A model generated the notes under the pieces. The model was not told where the DNA came from. It did no database searches and was given only the letters and a program-made list of their open reading frames with translations. Below are positions 9,962 to 35,307 of a DNA stretch of 56,915 nucleotides, piece by piece. The DNA is taken from NCBI GenBank assembly GCA_018398765.1, contig JAHBMJ010000097.1:1-56915 (forward strand), given 5' to 3'. Made by a program: the position numbers and the translations under genes. How positions within the stretch are numbered: position 1 is the first letter of the stretch; each line of letters begins with the position of its first letter. Source of the stretch: Chromera velia. Taxonomy: Eukaryota.

Positions 9962-11596
9962 TCAGAGAAGTATACAATCTCCTGGACGGAATTTCTCTGT
10001 CATCTGAGGGGGATTCCTGTATTCTCTTGCCTGCCTTTCCCTTTCTGCCCTTCCTCTTGCCTTGTCAACTCTCTCAATCCGTTCCTGCCTGATGAATCCT
10101 GCATACTCGTCGTAACAGACAGGCGGTGCTCTCGCACCTTCGGGAACGGGCGTGACCCGAAGAATGCTCTGAGGGTCATACGCGAACACAAGACCAAAGG
10201 GAAAGTACCCTGTCTCTGCATGCTCCGTCGTTCTGTAGGAGGCTAGGAAGGGCTGTAGATACAAGTCCCAATCCCACCTCTCTTCATCAAGCTGTTTCTC
10301 TAACCCCTGCACTAAGGTTTGGTTGAATCTCTCTGGGATCGCGTTGCCCTGTGGATGGTAGCTGGTAGTGGTCAAGTGACGGGCTTTCACCAGCTTGAGC
10401 AACTCTTACACAATCTCTGTAAGAAAATTCGTTCCTCAGCCAGAAACAAGGGTCTCAATAAATCTATACCGACAGATGATTTCTTCGAAGAGGATCTTCG
10501 CGACCTTCCAAGCAGGGACCTCAGGCAATGTAAATACCTCAGGCCATCGGGTCAAAGCGCACGTGATGACAAGCATGAATCGGTTCCCCCTCCTGGACAT
10601 TGGAACGGGGCCGACCGTATCGATGCCGACTCGCTGGAACGGTCGGGAGGGAACGGGAAGAGTCTGTGGGTTTCGGCTCTTCGGCTAATTCTTTCTCTCT
10701 TGACACGGTCGGCACTTGTACACCCACTCACGTGCGTCTTTTCTCAAACGGGGCCACCAGAATTCAGCGAAGAGTTGCTGAGAAAGTTTCTTGACTGCTG
10801 GGTGCCTGCCTATTGGGTGGTCATGATGCATAGTCAGGACGGTGCCCCTCAACACCGGAGGGACATATAGCTGCTCAGCCCCCCCCTTTTCATATCGATA
10901 GAGGAGCCTGTCCCTGATATCAAACGAATCCTCCTGCGCCATCACATTCTTGCGTCGGCTCATCTCCACTGGGAGTGTTCCTTCCTGCAAGTACCTGAAC
11001 AGATCAGAGGCAAAGGGATCAGAGGGAAGCATAGCCTTCACTTTATCCAAAAAGGGAACTGCCGCTGCCAGAGAGCTGACGCCCCCTACCTCTACCCCTA
11101 CAATCGATGCCTCCAGACTTGAACGAATCGGGATGCTCCCATCTACGGGGAGGTTGCAATGCCTGTAAAAAGGGGCTCCTGTGTCCACACTGTGCTCTGC
11201 AGGAAGCGGCACGCGCGAAAAGGAATCGGTATCTGCATGGGCTTTCCCATCCTTATAAAAAAATTTCGGTGCGTACTCCTGCAAAGCCCGAGCCCATTTC
11301 CCCACTCTCTCATTCGCCAGTTTGTTCTTCTTCATCGCTAGGTTCGGTTTGTGATCTGTTTGGACAAACACCACGCTGCCCAGCAGGTAGTGCCTCCACT
11401 GTTGGCAGCAGTAGACTGTTGCCAATGTCTTCCTCTCGTGTGCTCTGTACTTTGGTTCTGCTCCCACAAGCGCCCTGCTCGCATACGCCACCATTCTCTC
11501 TTTCTCATCCCTTACTTGCACAAGAACCCCCCCGATGGACACCTGACTAGCGTCCGGCTTTACGATAAATGGAGAACGCATGTCAGGGAAGGTCAT
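9962..11596 (-). pseudogene. pol: RNase H and integrase (frameshifted)
   Basis: RNase H motifs PDASQVSIGGVLVQ, AYASRAL and QTDHKP. Integrase zinc finger HHDHPIGRH...CRPCQ. Core motifs TTSYHPQGNAIPERFNQTL and YRTTEHAETGYFPF. Confidence 0.95.
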
Positions 11597-15613: not shown

Positions 15614-18600
15614 CTAAAACGAGCTGCTTGGCCTGGAGACTACCGAGTCTCTGTCTTCTTCTTCGGCGCTTGCGCTCTGACTTTCTTGTCCCAACCTCTC
15701 TCCGGACCGCCTTTGCAGCAGCACGGACGTTGCTTCTTGACCTCTGGAGTGAGATCGCCCTTGTATTGTGGGCTCAGGAAGGCCTCTGCCGTCTCTGCCG
15801 TCTACACCGACCCCGGCTCCCCCAATGGGCACTGGAGGAGGCGGGGGGGCCGCTCGAGGGGCAGCAGAGAGAGACCCTCGAGAGGCGTGGCCTTGAAGCT
15901 GTCCCGGAACCCCCGGGGTGTCCCTAGGTGGCAGGGCCGCCTGACCGGCAGCAGCAGCCGCCGCCGAGGTGGACACGGCAGCTGCAGGCACCGGGGTGGT
16001 GCGTGTGGAGACTCTCCGCTCTGTCTGCCGGACGTTGACCTCCACGAAATATCTGCAGAAAGAAAGAAAGAGACACATGGACGCCGTGTGTGATCTGTTT
16101 TCAGTCTGATGTGGACGAGCTCTCTCTCCATCTCATCTGACGGAATGTCTTCTTTCATCTCTCTCTTGGCTCATCTCTCTCCCCCCCTCTCTCTCTCTCT
16201 CTCCCTCCCTCCCTCCCTCCCTCCCTCCCTGACCAGCAAAACATCAGAGAATACACAGAGAGAACCCGCAAGAGAAAGCAAATCTCCCCCTTCTGTCCTT
16301 CCCCGCCCCCTTACCCACCCGAGGCGATCTGCAACGAGTGTCGTTGGAGGAGTGATTCGCACAGGCTGCCTTGCTGCTTGACCGCCTCCTTCCCTGTCTA
16401 CAGAATCCCTTGGAAGCTCTGCTGCAGCTCCACCACCCCCCCCAGGAAGTCCAAATCCCTCTTGGCGCCTACTCTCGTCTCTTTCCCCAGAGGGCATCCT
16501 TCTCTCTTCTGATGACTTTCCTCTTCCTTGCCCAGATTCGACGACTTTCTGCGGTCTCCCTCGTGCACTCTCTCTCTCCTTCTCCACGCTCCCACCACCT
16601 CCGACAGCTGGAGTTCTTCCAACCCCACCACTTCCAGTGCTGCTGTCTGCATCCCAGAACACGCGGCTGTCCTCTGCAGCACGCGACTCGGCAGAAACGA
16701 AAGAGGCAAACGAAGACGAACTCCCCCCCCCCTCCCGACTTCCACGCGGACCTCTTTGCACGTCTCGTGGGACTCTCCGGCTGCTCACTCCATCGTCATG
16801 AGCAACAGCACCTGACGCACGCGGAGACCGTGGAGAATAAAATCCGTCTCTTTCAATCAAATTGCCCTTCTCTCTATCCTCCCCCTTCCTTTCATTCTCG
16901 TCCTCTCCATCTTGCATTTGTCCTCTTTCTCCCCGACAACTACCTCCTTCTTCTTCTTCCTGTGCAGAAACGAACCTCTCCCTTTCCCTCCCACCCCTTC
17001 CATCAAAATCATGCACACTTCGTCCAGACAGATTCGAAACGTGACCTCTCTCTCCTATAGCCTCCATTGCACCTTCCTCCGCCCTATTTCGGGACAGAGC
17101 TGCTTGCAAGGAAACCGGAGATTGCTCCCTCTCCCCTCCCCGCAGCAAACCCAAATTCACCCCTCCCCCTCCAACTGCAGAACGATGCAACACCGCAGCA
17201 GATGACGAACCCGCACACGCAGCAGCAGACACAGCAACATGATGAGATGGCGGATGGTCAATAGAGCCCCCCGGCGGTCGGAACCTTCCAATGGCATCAA
17301 AAGAGTCCACTGCGCCAACAGCGGCAGCAGCAGCAGACCCTGAGGACACCAGGAGGTCACCTCTATTCCCCCCACTCACATACCTTTCCCCCTCGCCCAT
17401 ACCACCCCCCACCGCTCCCGACGGCTGAGAGGGACTTCGGGGCTCTTCAACGAGTGACAGCGGCTCTTCCTGTCCCGTGCCCGCAGACAACGGGGCAAGA
17501 TCGCCTGACCGCATGGAAACGTTTTCCTCCTCTCCCTCTCCCTCTTCGGCAAGTTGTTCATCCTCTCCCTCCCCTCCACCCTCACCTCCATCCTCTCTAT
17601 CGCACTCACACTCTTCATCCTCTTCCCCCCCCCAGCCTTCTCCAGACACACGCGAACCCGCGCCTTCATCGGGCCAATCCCACCCAAATCCCGGGCCCCC
17701 AGTCCACATCGGAGGCATGCCGGGGCCCCGCCCCCCAGAGACGGCAGGGGGGGGGGGGACCCCATGCCCCTCCCTCTCGCCCTCCTGTCCACGATGAATA
17801 CCCTCCCACATATCCCCTCTCCCTCTCCCAACCCCCCCTCCAAATTCACATTCACGGGGGCCCATCCGAGACGACGAAACACCTAGCCCCGCCCCAGTAT
17901 GCCGGGCATGCCGCAACCCTAGAACGGGAACCCCCCCACCGACACCCCGGAGAACTCCCCCCCCGTTGTTGGGTGTGGGAGGTCGATGGGAAGGATGGGA
18001 AGTGAGACCTGGACCGCTGCCCGGGGGGGGACCGGGGGCCGGACTTCGCCTCAACCGAAGCTCACCCCCTCCTGGCTGCATGCGCCGATTCACTCGCCAT
18101 CGGCGGTCTGACGAAGCCGCAGAAGACGACAACTCATCTTCCCCGCCCCCCACTGCTTTCCTTCCCGACGTAGAAGGACCCCCCCTTGACATCATCGCAC
18201 CGTGCGACGGTCTGCGCTTCCTCTCTGCCCCCCCTCCTCTTCTTGCCGGGTCTCTGGAAGAACCGGAAGAAGAGGGGAGACGTGAACGCACAGGCTCGAC
18301 CGGTGCGACTGCAGGGGGAGAGGACGTTGCGAGAGGAGGCAGGGGTCTTGAGGGGTGCCCGAGGGTTCCTTGCAGCTGATGCATTCCGCTTCTGTCTGCA
18401 TGCCCTAATTGCAGAGCATGAAGAGGAATGGGTGCGGAGGCGGGGGGGCCCAAAGGAACCGCAGAGTGTGTGGGGGCTTGGCAACGAGTCACGACAACAT
18501 TCTTTCCCCCCCCCGCACCTGTTCCGAGTTGAACAGGAGCGGCAGGAGGGGAGGCAGCTGCAGGGGCAGGAGGGGAGGGGGTCTGCGTGCGCTCCTCTGG

Positions 18601-19863
18601 AACAGACAATCCCCCACCTGAAGCGGTCGCAAAAGGGGAAGCGGCAGGAGGCGTGGGCGAAAGCGACGGGACTGGTGCCCGCGTGCCTATCATACCCCCC
18701 CGTCCCCCTCCCCCTCCCCCTCCTCCTCCTCCTCCTGCCCCCCCCCGCCCGCGTGCTCCCCGTGTCTCTACTGCGGGTTGTCTTTGATTCCTCCCCTCTT
18801 GGATCTTTTCATACACCCACATGTCAACAACACCCAACACGATAATGAAAACGAAGACAGAACACCCGGTCAATACGCAGGTGAGTAAAAGATATGAAAT
18901 CCAAAAGTTCTCCCTCATGAACCATCGAACACCAGTAAGATGGTTCTCAAGGGTAACAACCCCATCAACAACAGTCAGGGGTGGCGTCATCTTCACAACT
19001 GCACGATGCAGCTGGTGGGGCCGAACAAGAGGGAGGGAATCCAACACACGGACTCTCACTGCTTGACCATCTCGGGCAAAACCAGTGAGAATGGGAAAAA
19101 ACCAAAACAATTCCACCATCTTCTTCCGCCATCTTGCCAAGTGTTGCGGAATGAAAGGCTTGGCAGAGTGTCCCACCCTCGCCCCTGTCTCATCAAAGAG
19201 CTCGATAGAGAACATCGCAGCCTCCATTTTGCTATTCCGTTCGGTATTCGGCAAAAAGCACTCCACCAAAATATCATAATCGTACCCAAGTGCCTTTAAA
19301 GCCGTCCTGTCTGGGAACCCAAAGTCCTCCTCTGAAGGACTGTATGCCCACCCTCTCTTTGTGAACCGCACATCTGCTTGAACAGTCGGGTTCACGAAAG
19401 GCACCCCGACACTCTTCCTCAGAGCATCGTCACCTGCAACACCCCCCTCCCCTGCCTTCGGAAACATGAGAGAAAGGTCATGCGACGGATGGAAGTCTGC
19501 TACTCCATATCCCTGCAGTCGCATGAGGTCAAAGTCCATCAATTGAAAGGCTCTGCTGGCATACTGTCGGTAGTCGAAGTTCAGCTGAAACCTCTGGAGC
19601 CTTTGGGGAATCACCAACCAGTAAAGGAGGCTATAGGATAGACTCCAGAACACAAAGGCACCAACGGCAAAGCCAATAATGACAGACAGGTGGAGGAACA
19701 CCACCGACGAGATCCAGAACAGATTGTACGTCGCATCTGCCCCGCCGTGTACGATCGTTCTCAACTCCTGCAGCCGTCGGTCAGTGACTTCTCGGAATGC
19801 AGTCACGTACGTCTGGATGATCTGGTTCACATACTGACGGGGAGATACAAGCAGCCTGAGCAT
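15614..19863 (-). CDS. Seipin (lipid-droplet biogenesis protein) with a long Gly/Ser/Pro/Glu-rich C-terminal extension; two exons (19863-16319, 16052-15614)
   Basis: Two TM segments flank a lumenal domain with seipin-like motifs YDILVECFLPNTERNSKMEAAMFSIEL and LTGVRWFMRENFWISYLL. A phase-2 intron at 16053-16318 (GTGGGT...TTCTGCAG on the minus strand) joins the last exon in frame. Confidence 0.8.
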
Positions 19864-21088: not shown

Positions 21089-24000
21089 CCTCTCCCCCCA
21101 ACCGCCTCCCCCTCTCTCCCCCTGTCTGTTTCTGTGAATATTTGTGATTGTATCTTGTGATTGTGCCCAAAATGGGTGTCTGTTGCCTATTAGCGCACTG
21201 ACTGGCTTTCTCTGATCGCAGGGACCCTGGAAGTTCATGTGTATGGGGACTGGCTCCCTCGTCATCTGTTCGGGAGGTTCCATGCGGCCTTCGCGATTCT
21301 CCGGATGGTCTGGGTCTGCCTGTGCATCTTCGGTGCAGGTGAGGGGGGGAGACGTTAGGGGGAGACACGAGGAAAAACTCAAAAGTGATGGTGAGGTAAA
21401 AGAGAGGAATCAAGGCATGCGTGTGCATATTCCTCCTGCACTTTGTGAGTCTTTTGCTTGAACAACTTTCTTTCTTCATGCTGGTAGTCCCTGGTTTCTT
21501 TTGCCGCCCCCTTTCTTCTCTGTTCCGCTCAATGCCCCTTCTACCTCTTCCATCAGATCCCCGCCCCCGGGTTGATTCCTGGTGCGTTTCGAATCGTTTA
21601 GTTTCTCTGGGTGGTTCCTCAAAGGAAAGGAAGAGGAAGGTTGCCCTCGTGGTCAGATATTGTCGTTTTGTTTTGACCTCCTTCGTTTCTCTGAAATCCT
21701 CCCTGTCTCACTGTGGGGAGGAAATGCATGCGTGCAGGGCAAGTGTACTCTGTAGTAATCACAGACCAGGTCTCTGCCATCAATCCACTTGCAAGGCTGC
21801 TGATTTGCAAGAAGGTGGGTAGGTCAGAAGATGAGTGGTTGTACGGATGTAACGACGGCTTCACGACATTTCCCGATGACGGCCTTCCCTCCCCTTCCTT
21901 TCATATTTCTCATCCTCTTTTCATCTGCTTCCACCAATCCATCGTCCAGCGTGTACACTAGAATGAGTGTGTTGGACTTTCTCTGTCTGCGCGGCTCCTC
22001 TACGCCCCTCGAATGAACTCAGTTTACCTGTCCTCCCTCCCTCCCTCCCTCTTACATGCAGCTGCTGTTCTACTGTCACTTTCCCGATTTGCTTCTGTGC
22101 ACGGATCGGGGGGGGTCCCTGAAGAGCCTCTATCGGTCGGTTGTTTGACCATCTATCTGCATCTCCGTCCTGATGATGCTTTCAGTCTCTCTGTCAATAT
22201 TTCTGTAGCGCCGATAAATCAAGTACGTGCACGCGTGGGAAGTACGGACATGCAGTCAATTGACGCTTCAGTCTCCTCTTCTCCCCTCTTCTGACCTGCC
22301 TGCAGTTCAGCAATCGACTGGGTTGAGGAACAAACTACAGGTGAGGAAGCATGGAAGGGAAGGGAAAAGAAGGGAAGAAGAGATCTTGTGGGTGGGAAGA
22401 AGCAGACTGAACAGGAAAGAGTTTGGGGGGTCCCAGAACAAAAAGAAAAAAGAGAACAATAAATGAGAACGTGACGCGATGAAATCCTCTCCACCTCTCC
22501 GGAAATGCTCAACATAAACTTGTTCTCCCTCGTTTTTTTTTTTCCCGGTGAACCACGTTTTTCGCTGTCTGGGCATCTGTGAAGAAGAAACAAGAAATGG
22601 GACGGCACATACATCTCCGCATTCATTTATGTTGCAATGTTGCAGGTTGCGCAGACAGGCTTCTTGTAAACTCTGCTTTCACTCTGGAAGTCGCCAGGCA
22701 AACTTTTCCTGCTCTTCGGTAGGTGGAAGAAGGTTGATGTGGGTGGGGTATGATGTGAAATGCCGGGAGCTTTACTGCAGGAGAAAAAAGCTTCTTTTTT
22801 GTTATTTTCTTTCCGCATTTCCAGGGAGGCAGTTTCGTGTTCATGTTCTTTAGCTGATGCCTCTCCCCACTTGAGCACTCTGCGCTCTCTCCTGTCCTCT
22901 TTATGCAACACGTTCCCTCTTCTGTCCCTCTGTTTTCCTCTGAAGGTCTCAACCCATCGACATCCTCTATCCCCCCGTCGACCTGAAGAAAGCGAAAGAG
23001 AACCTCGTCGCTGCCAAACTGCCTCTCGTACCTCCAGGAGCTCGGACGTCGTCAGAGACGAGATCGAACCTCAGAAAGGCAATACAAGAGGAGGATGCAG
23101 AGTTGCAACGGTCGGTCGCTTGCCTTGGGGTGCTTCTCTGTTCATGGGGAAGGGAAGGAAGGCAGGGGGTGGGTATTCAATGAGACTCTCTCCTCTCGGT
23201 TGAATGAATTGCATACGGAGCTTTTCTTTCCCTTCTTCAAGAGTTTTCCTCGACTTTTTGTGTCTGCACACGTCTTCTCTCTCTCTCTCTCTCTCTCTAT
23301 CCCGAGAGGATCCATCCATGCATGCAGGTTTCTCTACAGCAGCCCAGAAGGAAACTCAGGAGAAGGAACAGAGGCTCCTCTGTACTTTCTGAGTCTGAAC
23401 AGGTCAACAGAGAAGCGTTCGTTCACGTGGGGGGGGTTGGTGCAAGCCGGGACGAAAGCGATTGATTGAGTCAACATCGCTCGCAGTGGTTGCAGAATAT
23501 GAGGAGGGAGCATCTCGAGGGGGTGCGGATAGAACGAATGAGAATGAATGTGCAAAGAATATTGTTGTGCTTTTTGCTGTGTGAGTTTTCCCTTCTCTGC
23601 AAGGTCTCTGTCTCTTTCTCGTCCGTCTTTTCTGCCTGCTGAAGAGGCACTTTCGATTCCCCTTTTTGGCTTTTGATTATTGCTCCCCCAATCTTTTTTC
23701 TGCCCGAGTGCTTATCGTGTACAGATATGAGAGGAAGAAGAATGTGGGACTCGCCATTGGAGCATTCGCACAATTGCAGAAAGAATGCAAACAGGGAGAA
23801 GACCCCGGAAAACTCATTATAGCAGGTCTGTCTCTCATTGAATGGGCTTTTCTGTGTGTCTGCTGCTTGTGTGTGAAATGGATTGAAGACACAAAGAACC
23901 ATTCGCTCTCTGTCTGGTGACCGTCTTGTTGTGTTGTTCTCCGATGACTCTCTTTTTCTTCTCTTGTCTCTTTTTTACATGAAAACAAGAAGAGATGAAA

Positions 24001-24970
24001 AACGAGTCATATTGTCCGTCTGTTTTTCTGTCTGTCTTGTCTGTCTGTCTGTCAAAGCACGCTGTGTCCGTTTCGCTTCCCCGGCTTGCCCGTCACCTTG
24101 GGCTTTTCTTCTTTCTTCTTTCTTCTTTCTCTTTCCGTCCGGTCCCCCCCGGTTCTTCCTATCAGCCTCTCACTCTTTAGTCTCGGGATGCTCTCTCGTC
24201 TTATGGTGTGCTTATCCCTTTCACTAACTTTCTCGCTCGCTCACTTTCTCACCGACAGGAGGCTACGACGGCAGGGTCTCTGAAAACAGAGAATATCACG
24301 AAGAGCTGAAGAAGAGGGCGAGGGAGGAGAGACTTCTCGCAGAAGAAGAAGGGGAGGGAGGGGAAAAGAGCAGAATTATTTTCCTAAGGTCCATCAGTGA
24401 CAAACTCCGATGGCTTCTCCTGTTTGGTGCCCGAGGACTAGTGTACACTCCCCAAAACGAACATTTTGGCATGGTCAGGGTGTTGGTGGGTGGTTGGACG
24501 TTTTGGAACGCCTTTCTTTCTTCCTTACTTCCCTTCTGCAGTGTCTCCTGCTCTTTCTTCTTTGCCGCGTTCCTGTTCTTCTTTTTATTATCGCTTCCTC
24601 TCTGTATACTATCGAGTTCACTGATTCCTCTCTCTATCCATTCATCTGCGGGGCCCAAAATCATGTGCGCCTGAGAAGCGCCTGTCGCGAAAAGCGGACG
24701 CCCTCCTTATTCCTCTCTTCTTTCTCACACTGTATCGTTGTCCGTTTTTTTCTTGGTCTCTACGTCTCTCTCCATTTNNNNNNGGGTCAAGGGCGTCTTT
24801 CCTTTCCCAAACAGTTTCCTTCCGTTCGCAAGGCACGGTTCTCGCCTCTGTGTCGACTGTTGCTCCTCTTCCGAATTTTTGGTTTGGGGTTTTGTAGGGG
24901 GCTGAACGCGAACGCTTGTGCGTGTCTGTGTTTCTGTTTTTGTGTCTGCATATGCGTGAGAGAGCTGGGA

Positions 24971-25013
<43 letters not shown>

Positions 25014-25961
25014 GAGAGAGAAACAGAGAGAGCGTACATATATGCGTGTGAGAGAGAGAGGGGTTGAAGGCGTCTACTCCTAGGTGAATCGCGACGTTCA
25101 TGCTCATTCGTGCGTACTTGCATACGAGAGCAGGGATTTCTCTGCGCGGACACTGATGCCGACTTTGGTCGGGCTCTACGGCAACTTTGGGGGTTTGAAA
25201 AGGGAAAAAACAGCACTCCGGGGCAGTCCAATGGAGCTCTAGATGTGAGTCTTCTTTTTTTTGTCATCCTTGCTTGTCTTTCTCCCTTTCTCTCCTTTCT
25301 TCACTTCTCTTTACTCTGCCTATTTCTCTGCCCTCTCTCTTTTCCTCAAAGTTGCTCTCTTTCCTGCATGTTTGTTTGTCTTGCTTTGTTTTTTCTTGTC
25401 TTCTGGTTTCCTCTTTGTTGTGATCTCTCTCCGCACAACTTCGATCTTTGTCCTGTCTGTGCAAGGTGTGACCTGACCTATCTGTGTGCGTGTGCTGCTG
25501 CAGGACCTTCGCGGCAGGTGCATGGAGAGGGTAGAGAAGCTGTTCGGACTCGGTGAGTTGAATTGGTTTGTTTGAGTGACGCTTGACCACATCGATTAGA
25601 GAAGACGAATCAGTCAAATCATCTCAATTGCTCTTCTTCTGTAGTCGAATGGGGGAAAGGGGGAGGGGATCGAAGGGCTTCCGGGTTTCTGAAAGGTGCT
25701 CACTTTCTCTTCTCTATCCTTCTTAATTCACGCTCTTTCGTCTCTCATCCGTCTGTTGCCCATCCAGACTTTACATCCAGCACCCTTTCGCCCGACAGAC
25801 TGATGGCCAGCAGCCGCTTCGCGAGAAGAGCCATGCACCCAAGCCTCGCCAACTTCAGTTCCTTGTTACCTTCCACGCCAAGTTGAAAGATTGGTGTTCA
25901 TTTGTTTGCAGACGCGTTTGCCAACAAACTCGCAGGCGTTGTGGGATCCCTTATGAAGTAG
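20581..25961 (+). CDS. ALG2: Alpha-1,3/1,6-mannosyltransferase ALG2 (GT4), multi-exon
   Basis: Exon peptides AFLHLDLGIGGAEQLIV, TSHHDRNHCF, VYGDWLPR, ITDQVS, LFYCHFPD, DWVEEQTT, LLVNSAFT, ILYPPV, LSLNR/YERKKNVGLAI, GGYDGRVSENREY, YTPQNEHFG, GFLC. Last exon ends AFANKLAGVVGSLMK*. One expected exon probably lies in the N gap at 24778-24783. Confidence 0.93.
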
Positions 25962-26848
25962 AAAGAGGTTCGATCATCCTGAGTTTTTTCCTTGTTTGTC
26001 TCTCTTTTGTGTGCACGGTTGAAGATCCAATGCTTAGTTCAGCTTAGCCCATTTCCACATTAATTGTCATTCGAAAGTGTGTCAAATGAATTGAATTGAA
26101 TTCTTTTACACTTTAATAGTACTTTATACATTACACTATCTTATACTACTATTATTATCAGTGTTATTGTTCATCAAAATGTCTCGATCTGGCTTCGATC
26201 ACAGTTAAAGTCAGAAATACGTAGTTTTTTGTTCAAAAATTTAAGTTAGATTTTAAAGTATGGCTTAGTTCGCATCTTAATGCTTTTATTTAAAACGATC
26301 GATACAGTATGGTTCTTTTTCTTATATGCAAATGCTAGGCCTCTTTAGGTGCCTAAGCCCAGTCTCCATCGTCTCTAGGGGCTAGCATTGCTGCAATCGA
26401 TCCTGCTGAACTGAAACACACTTCATTTAACTGCCTGCCGACCTGCGAGGTCGCCGCTACGATGGAGGGAAGACCCGTTGGCGGGACGTCGCTCCTATAT
26501 GGTCGCCCCATGTATACGCTGCGAAGCCGCCCTCCGTGCCGAGGCGTGAGGCGAGAGCATGTGCATGCATGCATGCATGTCTTAGATATGTCTTGGTCTC
26601 CGCATGCAGGGGAATGTATGTTAAAATTTTGAATTCAAATGACTGACCTTTAATAGTGACTCTTGAAATCGATTCACACGCGAGCAATCGATCCAATCGA
26701 TTTCATCAAACTTTCGATCAGTATTTTGCTGTCTTGTCAGCATTCGTTCACCTTTTGATTTAAAGTATGTTCTGATTGCAGCATTAGGCAGCAATTTTAA
26801 AGTGGTAATACTCATTACGGCAACCGGATTCAGGTACGCAACATCCAG

Positions 26849-28891
26849 ATGACTATTCTTCGGGGGTTCCTCTCCAAAAACTCCTTTCGTGCGATTCTTG
26901 TATACTTGTTCTTCTTCCTTGATCTCCTCTATATTGACTTTTCAAACACTCATGGGATTCCGAGAATATTGTGGATTCATTCTATGAAATTCGTACTTTC
27001 TTCTTCAACATTCCCTTTATTTTTTGCGGGGGATCTTTTCGTAATCCTGGTTGTGGAGCCGCTCACCATCCCAAGACTCCGAGCCAGCCTCCAGCACCCG
27101 CGCGTATCCCATGATACCTTCTTGGCTATCGCAAAGTACTGTATCGAACTGGTACGCAACGGCCAAGGCGGGACTGTGACTCTTCGTGGGTGCACTCCTT
27201 TCCGCAAATCTTGGTGGCCATTGCAGAACCGGGAGGTGGCAGCAACCTCTGAACCTGTGGCCCACCAGCAACTAGCGGTGACAACCGGCAATCTGAGGGA
27301 ATCTGCAAGGCCTGGTATGTCTGTGGTTCATGGTGACTTCATCGAAGAGACGGGATTGTTTGTGAAACCGATATTTATTTCGAAGCACCGAGGAGCCATG
27401 CAGTTTAACCTCCTCGAAGCTAGCCCCGGGGAGTCAAAGGGGGGTGGAAGAAGCAGGGGGTCGCGGCATGGGGCGGCAGAGGACCCGGCAGTGTTTGGTA
27501 AGGCCACAGTGGTGGTTGTTTCTGAAGAAAGAAAACAGATCTCCCTTTTCTTTCTGGACACCGCTCGCGAATGGAGTGTTGTTTTGATGGATGGGAGGGC
27601 ATGCCACTCCCGTTTAGGAATAGCCGATAGCACAAGTCAGGCAGGTGAGCTTGCAGAGGAAATCAAGAAGGCCTATGAAAACACAAATCCATGGAGTGAA
27701 GAACATTTTCTGGGATCCTTATTCGAACTCCTCACGCCTATCTTTTTGCACAGCCACACCGCGTTGTATGTTGCAATAGCGTATCTGTTCCTCACGGGGA
27801 TTATGGTATTCTGGGAAGATGGGTGGGTCTATGTAAGCATCGGTCTGTACGCATTTGTGTGTCCATACTTTGTGCGGGAGGTGACACCCACTGACCGGAA
27901 AACGCTGAGGAAGTGTTTGGCGGGGATAAAGGAGCTTGTGGAGATCGGGTGGGGAGCTATGATGGTTTTCCCAATGAGGGACCCTGAAGACGCTTTCATC
28001 TTGCAGATACAAAAGAAGGAAAAAGTGGAGTGTGGACACCAATTTCTGTCAAGCTTCGACCCATCAGAACCTTCCCATGATGGTGCAGTGCTGATTGAGG
28101 GCGACTGCATCTCGTATAGACGGGCGATGATTTGTGTAGAAAATAGAAAGCCTCTGTGGTGCAAGAAGAGACAACCGCCGCTGGAAGTGAAATCTTTCCG
28201 CGTGCAGGCGGCTGAGACGCTCAGTCGGGAAGGGGCACCAGTGGTACTTGCTCTCCACGGAGATGCACGGGAGTTGTTTGTGTTTTTTGAGGAAGCGGGC
28301 GTGCAACGGGTTATCCGCATGGACCCAAGAGTCACGGAGGAGCTTGCGAGGGTCGAGAGGAGGCTGCGGGCTGTTCTTTGCAGGGGGGACATGACGTGGT
28401 GGAAGTGGTGCAAGAATTCAATTTCAGATGGCTATGCCACCGGCATATTTGGAATGGCTGTCAAAGCCTTTCTTTGCCTTTTATTTTTGTTTCTTTGCGT
28501 GAGATTCATGTATGCGGCGCTGCTGATGTTTGTAGAAATGGTTTACGTTATTTTCAGTATTTTTCTGTTTGATTGGACATCGTCTTGGGTAATGTTGATC
28601 TGGTTTAGTTCAGCCCTGCTTCTGCTGGTTTTCTTCTTTTTGCAAGAGTTCTTCGTCACATATCGGGCGAGGAGACGGGAAGAAAAAGTTGACAGGGCAG
28701 AGGAAGAGGAGGAGGGGAGAGGGAATGGAAGAAGGGGAGGAAGGCTGGCGGGATTGATTGAGATATTGGTAGCTTCCTGGATCGCAGCATACCAGCGTCT
28801 TCTCGGAGCTGAAGAATTCCGGCGCCAAGGGATTAGAGAGAGGGACCAGAGACCAGCACATGAGGGCAATGAGCACAGTGAGGGTATTTAA
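26849..28891 (+). CDS. Membrane protein with two tandem diadenylate cyclase (DAC/DisA_N)-like domains, 680 aa, intronless
   Basis: Domain 1 (~27110-27550): CIELVRNGQGGTVTL, HRGAM, GSRHGAA, VVVVSEERKQISLFF. Domain 2 (~27900-28290): IKELVEIGWGAMMVF, FDPSEPSHDGAVLI, SFRVQAAETLS, VVLALHGDARELFVFF. Hydrophobic helices lie before, between and after the domains. Confidence 0.82.
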   Translation: MTILRGFLSKNSFRAILVYLFFFLDLLYIDFSNTHGIPRILWIHSMKFVLSSSTFPLFFAGDLFVILVVEPLTIPRLRASLQHPRVSHDTFLAIAKYCIELVRNGQGGTVTLRGCTPFRKSWWPLQNREVAATSEPVAHQQLAVTTGNLRESARPGMSVVHGDFIEETGLFVKPIFISKHRGAMQFNLLEASPGESKGGGRSRGSRHGAAEDPAVFGKATVVVVSEERKQISLFFLDTAREWSVVLMDGRACHSRLGIADSTSQAGELAEEIKKAYENTNPWSEEHFLGSLFELLTPIFLHSHTALYVAIAYLFLTGIMVFWEDGWVYVSIGLYAFVCPYFVREVTPTDRKTLRKCLAGIKELVEIGWGAMMVFPMRDPEDAFILQIQKKEKVECGHQFLSSFDPSEPSHDGAVLIEGDCISYRRAMICVENRKPLWCKKRQPPLEVKSFRVQAAETLSREGAPVVLALHGDARELFVFFEEAGVQRVIRMDPRVTEELARVERRLRAVLCRGDMTWWKWCKNSISDGYATGIFGMAVKAFLCLLFLFLCVRFMYAALLMFVEMVYVIFSIFLFDWTSSWVMLIWFSSALLLLVFFFLQEFFVTYRARRREEKVDRAEEEEEGRGNGRRGGRLAGLIEILVASWIAAYQRLLGAEEFRRQGIRERDQRPAHEGNEHSEGI

Positions 28892-30480
28892 ACATGAACA
28901 CGGTGACTATACATGACAGTCTACATGCATGCAGCAACACAGTCATGCACCACGTGTACACTATCTTTCACGCACAGGCGCCCAACGTACGACACGTCAG
29001 GGTAATGCCATTGGAGGAAACAATGCAGAACACAGGGGCCAGGAATGCTGTAAGACAGCTGAACGAGTACGGCGTGGAGTCGTCCCTTTTTTTACTGCAT
29101 TGGAAAAGGCAAACAAGAATATGAAGAAGACAAACACCTCCAAGCAGGTCCGTCAACGCTCCATATTTGTTTCGTAACACAGTATGGGTGCATAGATCAT
29201 CAAAGGCACTTGCAGCTGGTGGCTTGACATCCAGTCTTACTGGTTGAGGGAGCCTTGATTTTTGAACATTTTAGTGCGGAAGAGTTACAGTTTTGAATCA
29301 AATTGGGCAGATGTAAAGTTTTACTTGGGGTAGGTTGGTCTGCCCTTCGGCTATTGATGGCAATGATGGCTTTGAGGCGTTAATCTGCTAATCTGCTTGA
29401 TGAACACAATGTTGTTCCATATGGGAGTCTCTAGTCTTTTGCACGTTGTTCATCTTCGATCCTCTTTGTCTGCCACGGACTCCCTGTTCTGCACTGCAGG
29501 TTTGTCACATATCATATCACATATCACAGCCAACAAAAAGCCATGCAAGAGAGAAGATCCTCATGAACGGACATACAGGGCTACCTTGAATCACACATAA
29601 CTATGCAACTGTATTGCTGCAAGCCTGCAACTGTACCAACATATATATGCATCAATAAAATTCGAACTTCAACTTTTTTTAAACAACATTGCAATAGGTA
29701 ATTGAATTGTTTAAAAACAATATGAAAAGGAAGAAAAGGCAGCAACGATGTTACAGTACAAAACATTCTCCAATTGCAAACAGCTTAAATGACTTTATCA
29801 TGAAATTCCGGTGTTTCTTTTTTAACTTTTAACCTTTAATACATACTCAGCCTTCAAGCAAGCCATCATTCAAGTTTAACTTCAAAGGTGTTTAATCATG
29901 GAATATATTTATTCACTAGTTACTCACTTCAAAAATAATATAATCAGGAATATATTCAGGAATATATTCTTAAATTAATTAAGGGGGGGTCCGGGAGGCG
30001 GAGCCCTCCGGGCTACATTTTTCATTTTTTTTTTTAAATACAGTTTATAACTATAAAAAATTGGTTTTGAAAAAGATAAACAGGCGCTATCTAGCTGTTA
30101 GGCACTATTAATAGGCAGTAGTGTAACAGTTACTATACTAGACTGTGTTACAGTGTTACTAGAATTTTATAAAATCTTACAATTTATAAACTTATTAAAC
30201 TAGCAAATAACATATCATATGAATACGCGGTTGAAAGTTCATACACGTTTTCATTACATGAACATGCACACACTACACCAAAACATGCATACATACTGCA
30301 GCACACCCTGCATAGTGAAAGGAGGCCTTACTGTATGCACTACGTAAGATGCACTCTTTTTCACTTTCAGCATTCGAACGTGAAACACCAAAACACCACA
30401 AGCACTGTCGAGACTAAAACACCAAAACACCAGACTGAGTCCACACTGGAGCACTGGGAGCCGATCTAATTGAGCTCATT

Positions 30481-30675
30481 CTAATGCTGGGTAGCGATTG
30501 CTTTTTTGATTTCTTCTGTCTTCTTTTTGCAGCTTCGAAGGTGAGTCCAAAGATTGGACGTCCCTCTACTGCTTTTGGCTGTCGTCCCGCAGGAATTGCA
30601 TGTATACGATTCTACAGGTTTGCCGAGCGGTGGCTGAACTGCTTTGAAGAAGTTTTGTATGTTCACTTGACTCAT
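30481..30675 (-). pseudogene. BED zinc-finger fragment, probably the N-terminus of a hAT-like transposase
   Basis: YTCNSCGTTAKSSRGTSNLWTHLRSC (C-x2-C...GTSNL..HL..C) in AT-rich degraded DNA. No catalytic domain recognisable downstream. Confidence 0.7.
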
Positions 30676-31424
30676 TTTCAAACGATAGAGTTAATCGTCT
30701 AAACATATCAGGCCTCAGTCATCTCAGACTGGTATCATGACTTGCTGTGACTTTAAGTTTGCATCTTACCTTGTGTTTGAAACTCATGCATGAAGACCCA
30801 ATTTTTTATGCAACCTGTACAATCGGCTATTCGGCTCCGAATGCATGCACCGATGGCCGCACCGATAGATCATGGCTGCGGCCGCTAGCAGGAGCGGTGG
30901 GCCGCGCCGGCGCGTGCATGGCCGGCCCGTGGGCTGCATGGGCTGGGCCATGCGTACATGCAGTGCACTAGATGTGCACAAGCCTCTAGACTACTCCCAA
31001 AACATTTGCTTTTATAATTAACATAAAAAAAAAACCACACACCGTTAGAATGACCTAAAGTATTAAAGACTAGTAAGAATCGGACTTTGGCTAATTAATC
31101 ATTTTATTCAATCACATTCAATCACTTCATGGGATAATTAAATATATTTTAATCATAAGTGACTAAACACCTTTGTTTAACTTAGGGCTGAGGGCTCCAA
31201 TAGGTTTCACCTTTGCTATAACTTTGTGAGTTACCCTTCTAAATCTTTGTAACTCCTAGTGTTACTAAATCGACCAGCACATCATATCATGATCGATTCA
31301 TATGTTACTATATAGGCTCTGCACTCCATAAATAAATAAAAAAAAAGTTTCCAATCTTTTTTTTTTTCTTTTTTTATTTATCAACCAAAAATTATACAGT
31401 TTTTATGCATGCAGCATCCCGTGT

Positions 31425-31907
31425 AACACTCATGCAACAGTTGAACAACAGCTGTTTGTATGTTGAATATCATGACAAATAAAAAAAAATTCATTAAAAA
31501 AAAAGTTTTTCCAATCTTTTTTTTTTTTAAATGTAGTGCACAGCCTAGATGCTACTACTAAAACATTTGAGTATTAGGTTATCTGAAGATCTATAGGACC
31601 TGCATGGTAAGGACGTAAAACTAAGTGTAAAACCCGTGCGCCGTGTAGGCTACTGCAGGAATTAGCAGGAATTCAAGCTGTACATGGAAGTTACGGGAAA
31701 ACCGCGTTCTTGTCTGTGTCCTCTTCCAGTGTGGAAGACTCGGAAGACTATCTTAGCATGTGTACACTTCAAAAGTTGCGTATCTAGTTCTAGGCCTATC
31801 ACAGAAAAAAAAAAAATGATTTAAGCCCGTTCTCGCTTAATTTTTTTTTTTTTTGCCCGACGATGTTAAGTGACAAACAACTGTTGTTCAAGTGTTGCAT
31901 AAGTGTT
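31425..31907. repeat. 35-bp inverted repeat pair
   Basis: The reverse complement of 31425-31459 matches 31873-31907 (ACAAACAACTGTTGTTCAAGTGTTGCATAAGTGTT) with 3 mismatches. Confidence 0.75.
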
Positions 31908-32627
31908 GTTTTGATGTTGCATAAGTGTTGCTTAGGTGTTGCACACACAAAAAAAGAAAAAAATAATTTAAGCCAATTCTGGTTTACTTTTTTTTTTGTT
32001 GTTGTGATACGCCTAGATCTAGTTGCATATCGAACCAGTTGAACGGCACGGGGGCGGAAAGCGACTCGGATGGTGCATAAATAATGATGACAATACTAAT
32101 AAATTATTATTATATTTGATTATAAATCTGTATCTGACATATTTTAAGGTTTTAGAGAATCTCAGCCATGCAAAACAAGTTATAAAGCAGCTTAACAAAC
32201 TGGTTGACAAAGCTTAATACTATAGTAGTAGTATATTTCATATATTTCTCGGTCTCCTTTTCTAGCTTTGTCTTCCCTCTCGGTCGTTTCCCCTGCGTTT
32301 CCCCTGCCACTGCAAGTCTGTTCCGATGCAAGTGGTTTTTAACCCTGGTTGCTTGAGGGTGGAGCTACCCTCTGTCTCTATTTCTATTTCCGCCTTAGCT
32401 AGGCTTTGATCCACTGGCATGCACATGCCCCAGTGGGGCCTAGGTCGAGGGATCGAATCTATGCAGGAAATACTAGGTTGGCCAGAGCCTATATGGCTCA
32501 CCGGCTTTAACCAATCAATCAATCAATCAATCAAACCTCATACATCATCATCATCATCCCTATCCTATCATCATCATATTTTAGAGTAATACAGATAGAC
32601 ATAGCGGGAAGGCCCAGTGCGGAACCT

Positions 32628-34692: not shown

Positions 34693-35307
34693 TCAAGTCT
34701 CTCCTGGAAGTACATGGAAAAAGTGGAAAATCTGGGTCTCTTCCTCTTGAACCGCAACTACTGTGTTGCAAATGTTGCACGATACAGGAAGGAATCGCAC
34801 TTTCACAGCAGATTCCCCGTCTCCGTCCCCCCCAATTCCCTCCATTGCAATCGGCTCTCCGGAAGGACACATTATACTCGCACTGCTGCCGTCTGCCGCT
34901 TCAGGTGGCTGACTCTCAACAAACGTTCGCCGCCTTTTCCTTCCCCCGCCTCCTTCATCAACTGCCTCTTTGTACGTCTGCTCTGTGTGTACGGTGCAGT
35001 TGTACGCAGAAATCGCTCTGTATTGGTTCGGGTACAGATCATGACCCTGACAGGAGTAACAAAGCTGAGTGAAACACCCAGGGCAGGATAACACTGCATC
35101 GGTATGTGGATGCGCCTCGGTTTCTTCCGCCTTTCCATCCGAGTCTCTCAGACTGCGCACAAACATCGCGTCTTCCTCATCTTCTTGTGCGTCAAAGAAG
35201 GTCTCCCCAGGCTCTGCAGCGTCTGCACTTGGCTGCCATTCAGATAGATGTGTTTCTAGTCTGGTGGAAGAGGAAAAGTCAGGAACCCAGTCGTCCTCGC
35301 AGTGCAT
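34693..35307 (-). CDS. EAPP: E2F-associated phosphoprotein (EAPP)-like zinc-binding protein
   Basis: TDAVLSCPGCFTQLCYSCQGHDLYPNQYRA...NC and PVSCNICNTVVAV...IFHFFHVLP match the Eapp_C pattern. Acidic N-terminus. Confidence 0.88.
   Translation of the reverse strand: MHCEDDWVPDFSSSTRLETHLSEWQPSADAAEPGETFFDAQEDEEDAMFVRSLRDSDGKAEETEAHPHTDAVLSCPGCFTQLCYSCQGHDLYPNQYRAISAYNCTVHTEQTYKEAVDEGGGGRKRRRTFVESQPPEAADGSSASIMCPSGEPIAMEGIGGDGDGESAVKVRFLPVSCNICNTVVAVQEEETQIFHFFHVLPGET

What the first reader, a model, noticed from the sequence alone, without database searches (positions are those of the whole stretch)
26849..28891. Eukaryotic TM-DAC-TM-DAC protein whose two cyclase domains carry complementary catalytic motifs
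Seen: two DAC/DisA_N-like domains, each preceded by hydrophobic helices, resembling a duplicated CdaA module. Domain 1 keeps GSRHGAA (27458-27478) and VVVVSEE (27509-27529), with 19 residues from R to S, but has HRGA in place of HDGA (27386). Domain 2 keeps HDGAVLI (28076) but has SFRVQAA instead of GTRHRAA and LHGD instead of VSEE. Established: bacterial and archaeal DACs (DisA, CdaA) make c-di-AMP as head-to-head dimers with two symmetric sites, each using the (H)DGA motif of one subunit and the RHR/SEE region of the other. c-di-AMP synthesis is regarded as prokaryotic. Inference: the reciprocal loss leaves exactly one composite site, as in the TM-C1-TM-C2 pseudo-heterodimer of animal adenylyl cyclases. 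The protein could be a membrane-regulated synthase of a linear (pppApA-type), asymmetric or cyclic dinucleotide, with the dead site free for allosteric use. That would be an undescribed protist second-messenger or immune system.
Basis: partly seen in the sequence, partly recalled or inferred. Interest (0 to 1): 0.92.

Follow-up and report, generated by a model that had tools for sequence, protein, structure and literature searches.

The report
Protist protein with two half-dead cyclases
A gene in a eukaryotic (protist-type) genome encodes a membrane protein with two worn copies of the bacterial enzyme domain that makes the messenger c-di-AMP, each copy keeping the catalytic residues the other lost, so the pair likely forms one shared active site and would be a eukaryote's own maker of a dinucleotide signal, though no activity has been tested and no relative in another species was found.

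Summary
Observation largely confirmed. The 680-aa ORF passes Pfam's DAC cut-off (E 2.9e-10, two stretches). Both domains are complete DAC remnants: the motif-less halves still fit a bacterial DAC profile (3/2000 and 0/2000 shuffles). Domain 1 keeps G-S-R-H and S-E-E; domain 2 keeps H-D-G-A plus the Arg. Together they hold 7 of 7 polar catalytic residues against about 20% background identity. Corrections: domain 1's lost HDGA most likely sits at RPGM (aa 154-157), not HRGA, and a third block of 3-4 membrane helices follows domain 2. The gene is eukaryotic: spliced neighbours, and a spliced 3' intron in contigs of 3 of 4 runs (one study). Best reading, inferred: one composite site joining two nucleotides once, giving a linear or asymmetric dinucleotide. 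Against: no orthologue among 1.84 billion representatives; transcribed variants differ by 3-15% with a near-neutral share of amino-acid changes; no complex model could be run; membrane topology is only roughly estimated. Bacterial CdaG already pairs a fully dead DAC-like domain with a live one; a reciprocal pair in a eukaryote was not found in print. This scan earlier noted a different, frame-broken eukaryotic DAC gene (e1-7376012).

The parts
26849..28891 (+). Intronless ORF, 680 aa; public protein collections hold the same sequence from Met46 (635 aa)
   Evidence: contigs of runs X1 and X2 cover the region from 26768/26790 across the first ATG without a joint
26885..27067 (+). N-terminal hydrophobic segments, aa 13-29 and 57-73 (predicted membrane helices; the first may be a signal anchor)
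   Evidence: hydropathy scans
27101..27694 (+). DAC domain 1 (aa 85-282): predicted donor half; keeps the phosphate and metal residues, lacks His-Asp
   Evidence: model (pLDDT 52, aa 116-201 low), fold search (circular: built on a DAC alignment)
27308..27319 (+). RPGM (aa 154-157), the most likely worn equivalent of HDGA in domain 1
   Evidence: block test; spacing; weak BLAST match to domain 2 (E 0.31); rival registers
27386..27397 (+).
27458..27478 (+). GSRHGAA (aa 204-210), intact GxRH motif of domain 1
27509..27529 (+). VVVVSEE (aa 221-227), intact SEE motif of domain 1
27764..27874 (+). Two hydrophobic segments between the domains (aa 306-322, 326-342), a predicted membrane hairpin that would keep both domains on one side
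   Evidence: approximate scale; five Lys/Arg follow the second segment
27881..28393 (+). DAC domain 2 (aa 345-515): predicted acceptor half; keeps HDGA and the Arg, lacks G-T-x-H and S-E-E
28076..28087 (+). HDGA (aa 410-413), intact; Asp411 is 42 residues after the first strand, the bacterial mode
28193..28213 (+). SFRVQAA (aa 449-455), worn GTRHRAA; Arg451 kept
28253..28264 (+). LHGD (aa 469-472), worn VSEE; Asp472 at the metal-binding Glu position
28460..28795 (+). C-terminal membrane block: aa 538-554, 558-574, 583-599, basic and acidic linker, weaker segment 633-649; no family match over a cut-off
29145..29499 (+). GT-AG intron 3' of the stop codon, spliced out in contigs that also carry the ORF end
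   Evidence: tables 5 and 8: joint 29144 to 29497 (cut +3) in 3 of 4 runs, one study

Best explanation
This is a eukaryotic membrane protein with two DAC-fold domains that have lost opposite halves of the catalytic residue set, and it likely works as a pseudo-heterodimeric nucleotidyltransferase with one composite active site. Shown: the gene, the two domains, and which residues each keeps. Inferred: domain 1 (R206, H207, S225, E226, E227) would hold the triphosphate and metal of a donor NTP; domain 2 (H410, D411) would hold the ribose of an acceptor nucleotide and aim its 3'-OH at the donor's alpha phosphate. The opposite site has neither the Asp nor the phosphate cradle, so one binding event would make one 3'-5' bond: a linear dinucleotide of the pppApA or pApA type, perhaps with a non-adenine base, which could cyclise only after release and rebinding in flipped orientation. 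The pairing could be within one chain or between domain 1 of one chain and domain 2 of another; like-with-like pairings would be dead. Inferred origin: a bacterial CdaA-type gene acquired by transfer, duplicated in tandem, then split in function. The membrane helices would supply localisation and regulation.
For: Pfam DAC over cut-off with two stretches. Motif-bearing halves 25.9 and 35.3 bits, 0/1000 shuffles each. Motif-less halves still fit the fold: domain 1 hairpin 3/2000, first helix and strand 15/2000; domain 2 C-half 0/2000 masked; the Atlas, given only aa 425-520, returns DAC-bearing clusters as its top three by features (0.81-0.83, lead level) and DAC/DisA models in 6 of its first 7 structure rows (TM 0.49-0.50). 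Of seven polar catalytic positions domain 1 keeps 5, domain 2 keeps 3, together 7 of 7, while identity to the consensus elsewhere is 27/136 and 29/136, and 10/30 and 6/20 at strongly conserved columns; at a 0.3 retention rate the chance of covering all seven is about 0.009 (hand arithmetic; inflated by the fact that the motifs are how the gene was noticed). DG and GxRH are present in 143 of 143 bacterial domains, so neither domain is a normal DAC alone. Residue roles, attack on the opposing ATP and the pppApA intermediate are published (PMC7288161 section 7; PMC3900455 passages; His170 metal ligand, PMC11686323 passage; Asp and Arg essential, PMC12974146 section 7). Around HDGA 5 of 5 listed transitions in the expressed variants are silent (p 0.005, window chosen after looking), and one variant has an in-frame 6-base insertion. 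Two hydrophobic segments separate the domains.
Against: No orthologue: only the gene itself and bacterial CdaA-type proteins at E 2e-4 to 6e-4 among 1.84 billion representatives; nothing (self plus one CdaA at E 0.83). With a narrow CdaA profile the motif-less halves scored weakly (21/1000 and 313/1000) and Pfam finds nothing on them alone. Only three motif blocks are shared out between two domains, so a complementary split matching this scheme has roughly a 1 in 9 chance even at random (hand count). Of 27 listed differences in the ORF 19 change the amino acid; 8 of 25 transitions are silent against 31% expected without selection, and no contig carries the window's letter at those 27 places (only 40 of 273 rows were shown). 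One low-depth contig has a 2-base deletion in domain 2. Domain 1's adenine-contact Leu is Thr109 and aa 116-201 are modelled at pLDDT under 50. Published monomer structures show Asp and RH/SEE all touching the same ATP, so each worn pocket may bind too weakly to work. That the partner subunit lends His/Asp to the metal is recalled, not seen in the papers read. Three helices followed by a basic tail after domain 2 do not fit a simple positive-inside topology.
Confidence: 0.45

Rival explanations
1. Non-catalytic nucleotide sensor: the paired pseudo-DAC domains bind c-di-AMP or ATP (for instance from bacteria) and pass the signal to the 7-8 membrane helices, which act as a channel or effector, as degenerate GGDEF/EAL domains act as c-di-GMP receptors.
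For: Both domains are dead by single-domain rules; a large membrane part with no family match follows domain 2; DAC dimers hold product tightly (PanS co-purifies with cUAMP, PMC13640721 section 7).
Against: The residues kept are the triphosphate and metal ligands and the catalytic His-Asp, which product binding does not obviously need; the adenine-contact Leu is changed in both domains (T109, M371).
Confidence: 0.2
2. A transferred bacterial gene that is now drifting: it may once have been a working tandem cyclase, the complementary look is partly chance, and this copy is an idle or decaying duplicate.
For: Singleton; near-neutral silent share, 8 of 25; window letters absent from the contigs at 27 listed places, with a strong A>G/T>C skew (115 against 44 reverse changes in X1, whole laid stretch), as if the window copy had gathered C>T/G>A changes; branch lengths of 7 and 10 changes per site.
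Against: 680 open codons although 5% of C>T/G>A changes would make a stop (chance of none 0.27 for 25 changes, 0.075 for 50); 7 of 7 catalytic residues kept across the pair at 20% background; each lost residue is 1-3 base changes from the canonical codon, 8 of 10 needing two or more, so the losses are old; at least two variants are present as spliced or unspliced transcript-like contigs.
Confidence: 0.2
3. The composite site is real but the chemistry is not dinucleotide synthesis: domain 1 activates ATP and transfers AMP to water (ATPase or pyrophosphatase) or to another acceptor such as an RNA end, a sugar or a protein hydroxyl held by domain 2.
For: M. tuberculosis DisA with its Asp-Gly mutated loses cyclase activity but hydrolyses ATP (PMC3900455 passages), which is domain 1's state; domain 2's phosphate cradle is replaced by bulky residues F450, V452, H470.
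Against: Domain 2 keeps the ribose-binding HDGA loop at bacterial spacing and R451, which points to a nucleotide acceptor.
Confidence: 0.1
4. One circularly permuted DAC domain built from the C-half of domain 1 and the N-half of domain 2, the other halves being unrelated sequence; it would act as an ordinary homodimeric c-di-AMP synthase.
For: HMMER sees only the C-half in domain 1 and the N-half in domain 2; Pfam finds nothing on the other halves.
Against: The other halves fit DAC blocks in the right order and spacing and the Atlas sees DAC in aa 425-520 alone.
Confidence: 0.05

Closest known systems
CdaA/DacA membrane diadenylate cyclases (Pfam PF02457, TIGR00159; structures 4RV7, 6HVL, 6GYW), above all the CdaA_N-DAC-TM-YbbR type
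   Same: DAC fold behind membrane helices; HDGA with the His typical of CdaA; best sequence relatives are of this type (P0003, P0006-P0008); PDB hits are CdaA.
   Different: Two domains in one chain, neither with a full motif set; about 20% identity to the consensus; 15.9 bits on TIGR00159 against a cut-off of 188.8; no CdaA_N or YbbR match; eukaryotic gene.
CdaG family (DACNG-DACNH-DAC) and the CBASS-DAC / DS-2 anti-phage systems
   Same: A degenerate DAC-like domain and a DAC in one chain (PMC13640721 passage); DAC used for immune signalling (PMC13092281, PMC13069673).
   Different: DACNH lacks all catalytic residues and the C-terminal DAC is whole; here each domain keeps half. This protein is membrane-spanning between the domains, has no PADLOC match and no CdaG model among its NCBIfam matches.
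PanS of the PanDA system (minimal DAC)
   Same: Shows that a DAC fold can make an asymmetric product (cUAMP) when two adenine-contact positions change; the equivalents here are S205/A209 and F450/A454 (PMC13640721 section 7).
   Different: PanS is a soluble homodimer with D, G, G, R all kept and an operonic 2TM effector.
Animal membrane adenylyl cyclases (TM6-C1-TM6-C2) (recalled, no call)
   Same: Works-like analogy: two homologous domains in one membrane chain, one catalytic and one degenerate site at their interface.
   Different: Unrelated fold (class III cyclase), one substrate molecule rather than two, and no evidence here of an allosteric ligand.
Dictyostelium diguanylate cyclase (PMC4686194, abstract start seen)
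   Same: Precedent for a prokaryote-type dinucleotide cyclase used by a protist.
   Different: GGDEF fold, c-di-GMP, activity shown.

Membership tests
DAC/DisA_N domain superfamily (PF02457) | Score over Pfam's gathering cut-off | tested here: met
   40.2 bits against 27 for the whole protein; single domains 23.6 and 21.8, under the cut-off
DAC/DisA_N domain superfamily (PF02457) | Alpha/beta DAC fold over the whole domain | tested here: inconclusive
   Block tests and Atlas support both domains; own domain 1 model matches CdaA (E 5e-5) but was built on a DAC alignment chosen for one register; single-sequence model failed
Canonical diadenylate cyclase (CdaA, DisA, CdaS, CdaM, CdaZ) | DGA, GxRHRxA and SEE motifs within one domain | tested here: not met
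   Domain 1 lacks His-Asp; domain 2 lacks G, T, H, S, E; DG and GxRH occur in 143 of 143 bacterial domains
Canonical diadenylate cyclase (CdaA, DisA, CdaS, CdaM, CdaZ) | Head-to-head pairing of two DAC domains | not tested
Canonical diadenylate cyclase (CdaA, DisA, CdaS, CdaM, CdaZ) | Makes c-di-AMP from two ATP with a divalent metal | not testable with these tools
   Needs an enzyme assay
CdaA (TIGR00159) | Equivalog cut-off and three N-terminal helices (CdaA_N) before a single DAC | tested here: not met
   15.9 bits against 188.8; no CdaA_N match; two domains
CdaG / CBASS-DAC | DACNG and DACNH domains before an intact DAC, beside a CD-NTase and effector | tested here: not met
   No intact DAC; no NCBIfam or PADLOC match; neighbours are eukaryotic genes
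Pseudo-heterodimeric single-site enzymes (works-like class) | Complementary retention of catalytic residues in two homologous domains | tested here: met
   5 of 7 plus 3 of 7, union 7 of 7
Pseudo-heterodimeric single-site enzymes (works-like class) | Both domains on the same membrane face | tested here: inconclusive
   Two segments between the domains, but only an approximate scale, and the C-terminal count is unclear
Pseudo-heterodimeric single-site enzymes (works-like class) | Pattern conserved in orthologues | tested here: inconclusive
   No orthologue found; variant contigs show D411 unchanged, but 233 difference rows were not shown

The most novel reading that the evidence does not exclude
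A eukaryote-encoded DAC-fold synthase that, by splitting one bacterial active site over two tandem domains, makes its own linear or asymmetric dinucleotide messenger under membrane control, in a small, fast-changing gene family of the kind seen in immunity: a new nucleotide signal chemistry in protists and a natural half-site enzyme for dissecting the DAC mechanism.
Probability: 0.3. Interest if true: 0.92.

Novelty: new variant of a known kind. Interest (0 to 1): 0.74.

Why it matters
The papers read treat DAC enzymes as bacterial and archaeal, and all characterised ones are symmetric with two equal sites. A working single-site version in a protist would extend c-di-AMP-type signalling to eukaryotes, could yield a new dinucleotide, and would test directly whether the His-Asp of one domain and the Arg-His/Ser-Glu-Glu of the other are enough for one bond. 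The prediction is sharp and cheap to test: D411A and E227A should kill activity, while changes at D472 or the RPGM loop should not. If inactive, it is still a rare domesticated DAC fold in a eukaryote.

Tried and rejected
Single-sequence AlphaFold of the full protein: pLDDT 40, no fold match. Complex prediction of domain 1 with domain 2, ATP and Mn: not available, no verdict. VIA structural alignment: machine busy, no result. Searches for eukaryotic relatives: full-length and shorter word searches, each scoring only the best ~8000 candidates; exhaustive phmmer; viral and metagenome contigs; phages and plasmids (only E 5-9 noise); PADLOC and PHROGs: none. Longer fused forms were not searched by the word tool. 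No genome is held for this window, so paralogues, phosphodiesterases and receptors in the same genome could not be sought. No second DAC-like frame in the window. Tree of both domains with 60 bacterial domains: quick tree only, both on extreme branches that meet, so no donor and no order of events can be named. Five bacterial frames with long envelopes held no second DAC. Contamination rejected: spliced flanking gene, spliced 3' intron, GC3 0.55 against 0.52 and 0.50 in neighbours. RNA editing as a way to restore the lost residues rejected: 0 of 10 are reachable by A>G or T>C; editing as the source of the differences is unlikely since every covering contig shows them, but needs DNA of the same strain. 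Runs X5 and X6 hold next to none of the words and no listed run is on record as RNA: no evidence either way. Literature: 10 searches listed no paper on a eukaryote-encoded or reciprocally split DAC; two searches were swamped by unrelated hits. Galperin 2023 (J Bacteriol, PMC10127676), the main survey of DAC architectures, is not held and may mention such proteins; one structural paper on CdaA was also not held. Supplements were not read.
Full report
THE GENE. The ORF at 26849-28891 (+) encodes 680 aa without introns. Protein collections hold the same sequence from Met46, under UniRef, EukProt and MetaClust labels. The window is eukaryotic: a seipin gene, an E2F-associated phosphoprotein gene and retrotransposon RNase H/integrase remains pass Pfam cut-offs (15 of 44 ORFs scanned), and the upstream gene shows seven GT-AG joints in all four runs laid. 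Contigs of these runs (one study; RNA is the tool's guess, but they are spliced) cover the ORF in pieces, and in 3 of 4 runs a contig joins the end of the ORF across a GT-AG intron at 29144-29497. GC3 is 0.55 against 0.52 and 0.50 in two neighbours. Contamination is therefore unlikely.

TWO DAC DOMAINS. Pfam gives DAC at E 2.9e-10, 40.2 bits, two stretches; PDB sequence hits are 4 of 4 diadenylate cyclases, all weak (E 0.06-2.8). HMMER sees the C-half of the fold in domain 1 and the N-half in domain 2. To ask whether the other halves are DAC remnants I collected 143 bacterial DAC domains from genome loci (four come from a genome marked unpublished, G001, and two of them are in the 52-row profile) and slid gapless profile blocks along each domain against 2000 shuffles. 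In domain 2 the 32-column block GTRH...SEE falls on SFRVQAA...LHGD without a gap (0/2000 masked, 8/2000 unmasked); MAFFT gives the same register. In domain 1 the HDGA-hairpin block falls on RPGMSVVHGDFI at aa 154 (3/2000 masked, 10/2000 unmasked) and the first helix and strand on aa 94 (15/2000). A narrower CdaA profile had given only 21/1000 and 313/1000 for these halves, and Pfam finds nothing on them alone. Independent of my alignments, the Atlas given aa 425-520 returns DAC-bearing clusters (0.81-0.83, lead level) and DAC/DisA models at TM about 0.5; for the whole protein all its ten best family hits share the DAC family. My model of domain 1 matches CdaA structures (E 5e-5), but it was folded on 40 DAC rows chosen to keep the RPGM register, has pLDDT under 50 over aa 116-201, and is not independent evidence.

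HRGA at aa 180 is probably a look-alike in a loop insertion. It is not among the top three block placements and breaks both bacterial spacings. Pairwise alignments are split among V172 (56 of 134), P155 (23) and R181 (15), so the register is not settled, but none supplies an Asp.

COMPLEMENTARITY. Domain 1 keeps G204, R206, H207, S225, E226, E227; domain 2 keeps H410, D411, G412, A413, R451. Of seven polar catalytic positions they keep 5 and 3, together all 7, while identity to the consensus elsewhere is 20-21% and about 30% at strongly conserved columns. Eight of ten lost positions tested are two or three base changes from the canonical codon. This looks like long selection on exactly these residues. 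The caution is that the motifs are why the gene was noticed, and that only three blocks are shared out between two domains.

MECHANISM. In Listeria CdaA, Asp71 binds the ribose; Thr102, Arg103, His104, Ser122 and Glu123 bind the phosphates; Glu124 holds the metal (PMC7288161, section 7 read). The His before the Asp is an essential metal ligand (PMC11686323, passages). The 3'-OH of one ATP attacks the alpha phosphate of the opposing ATP and pppApA is a detected intermediate; the Asp-Gly mutant keeps only ATPase activity (PMC3900455, passages). Asp and Arg mutants are dead in Leptospira CdaA (PMC12974146, section 7) and in PanS (PMC13640721, sections 5 and 7). CdaA forms back-to-back dimers and becomes active when two dimers meet head to head (PMC6368335 and PMC11686323, passages). 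That the partner subunit lends its His and Asp to the metal is recalled and was not seen in these texts. From this I infer a donor pocket in domain 1 and an acceptor pocket in domain 2, one bond per binding event, and a linear or asymmetric product, with cyclisation possible only by rebinding. Changed adenine contacts (T109, F450) leave base choice open; PanS shows such changes can admit uridine. Pairing may be within a chain or between chains. Two hydrophobic segments between the domains fit one membrane face, but the scale used is approximate and the C-terminal block does not give a clean topology. No complex model could be obtained.

AGAINST. The protein is a singleton. Among 1.84 billion representatives only itself and three bacterial proteins pass E 0.001, all on the N-half of domain 2; add nothing. 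The contigs of X1-X4 match flanking intron stretches almost exactly (0/378, 1/318, 1/418) but differ from the ORF by about 3-6% in some pieces and 9-15% in others, so at least two variants exist and none carries the window's letter at the 27 listed places in the ORF (40 of 273 rows shown). Of these 27, 25 are A>G or T>C and 19 change the amino acid; the silent share equals the neutral expectation except around HDGA, where 5 of 5 are silent. This fits either a fast-changing family under selection at the active site or a drifting duplicate. The tree is uninformative.

KNOWN RELATIVES AND NOVELTY. It is a member of the DAC fold family but fails the membership tests for CdaA and CdaG. CdaG already joins a fully dead DAC-like domain to a live one, and DACs serve in CBASS-DAC and PanDA immunity (PMC13640721, PMC13092281, PMC13069673; passages and sections). 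Ten paper searches listed no eukaryote-encoded or reciprocally split DAC; reviews searched for 'eukaryot' mention only host sensing of bacterial c-di-AMP, and one paper states that DACs are absent from mammalian cells (PMC10167629, passage). Galperin 2023 could not be read, so absence from print is not established. Earlier notes of this scan describe a frame-broken, intron-split DAC in another eukaryote and dead-plus-live tandem DACs in prokaryotes; I did not test them, but one led me to CdaG.

VERDICT. A real eukaryotic gene with two complementary half-dead DAC domains: a new variant of a known kind. Single-site dinucleotide synthase 0.45; non-catalytic sensor 0.2; drifting relic 0.2; other AMP-transfer or hydrolase chemistry 0.1; permuted single domain 0.05. 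Interest 0.74.

Noticed in passing
window 22000-32600: Differences between the window and the contigs of runs X1-X4 are skewed to A>G and T>C (115 against 44 reverse changes in X1) and are several times denser over the DAC gene, its 3' region and intron than in the flanking gene; could be hypermutation of a duplicated locus, paralogues, or editing.
   Followed up: partly
window 22000-26000 (+): Multi-exon spliced gene directly upstream; exon translations carry stretches that recall the ALG2 mannosyltransferase (label recalled; Pfam found nothing on three single exons).
   Followed up: partly
window 16171-19863 (-): Unusually long single-exon seipin-domain protein, 1230 aa, domain at aa 71-331 with about 900 further residues.
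   Followed up: no
window 10685-11596 (-): Retrotransposon RNase H and integrase zinc-finger fragment.
   Followed up: no
window 34693-35307 (-): E2F-associated phosphoprotein (Eapp_C) gene, 204 aa, also held under an MMETSP label.
   Followed up: no
window 30200-30660: Short stretch matched by contigs of very high depth (about 140-625) with loose ends: probably a repeat or a highly expressed related locus; no open frame seen on +.
   Followed up: no
window 31425-31907: 35-base inverted repeat, 91% complementary, 413 bases apart, with contig loose ends at both arms: a possible miniature inverted-repeat element.
   Followed up: no
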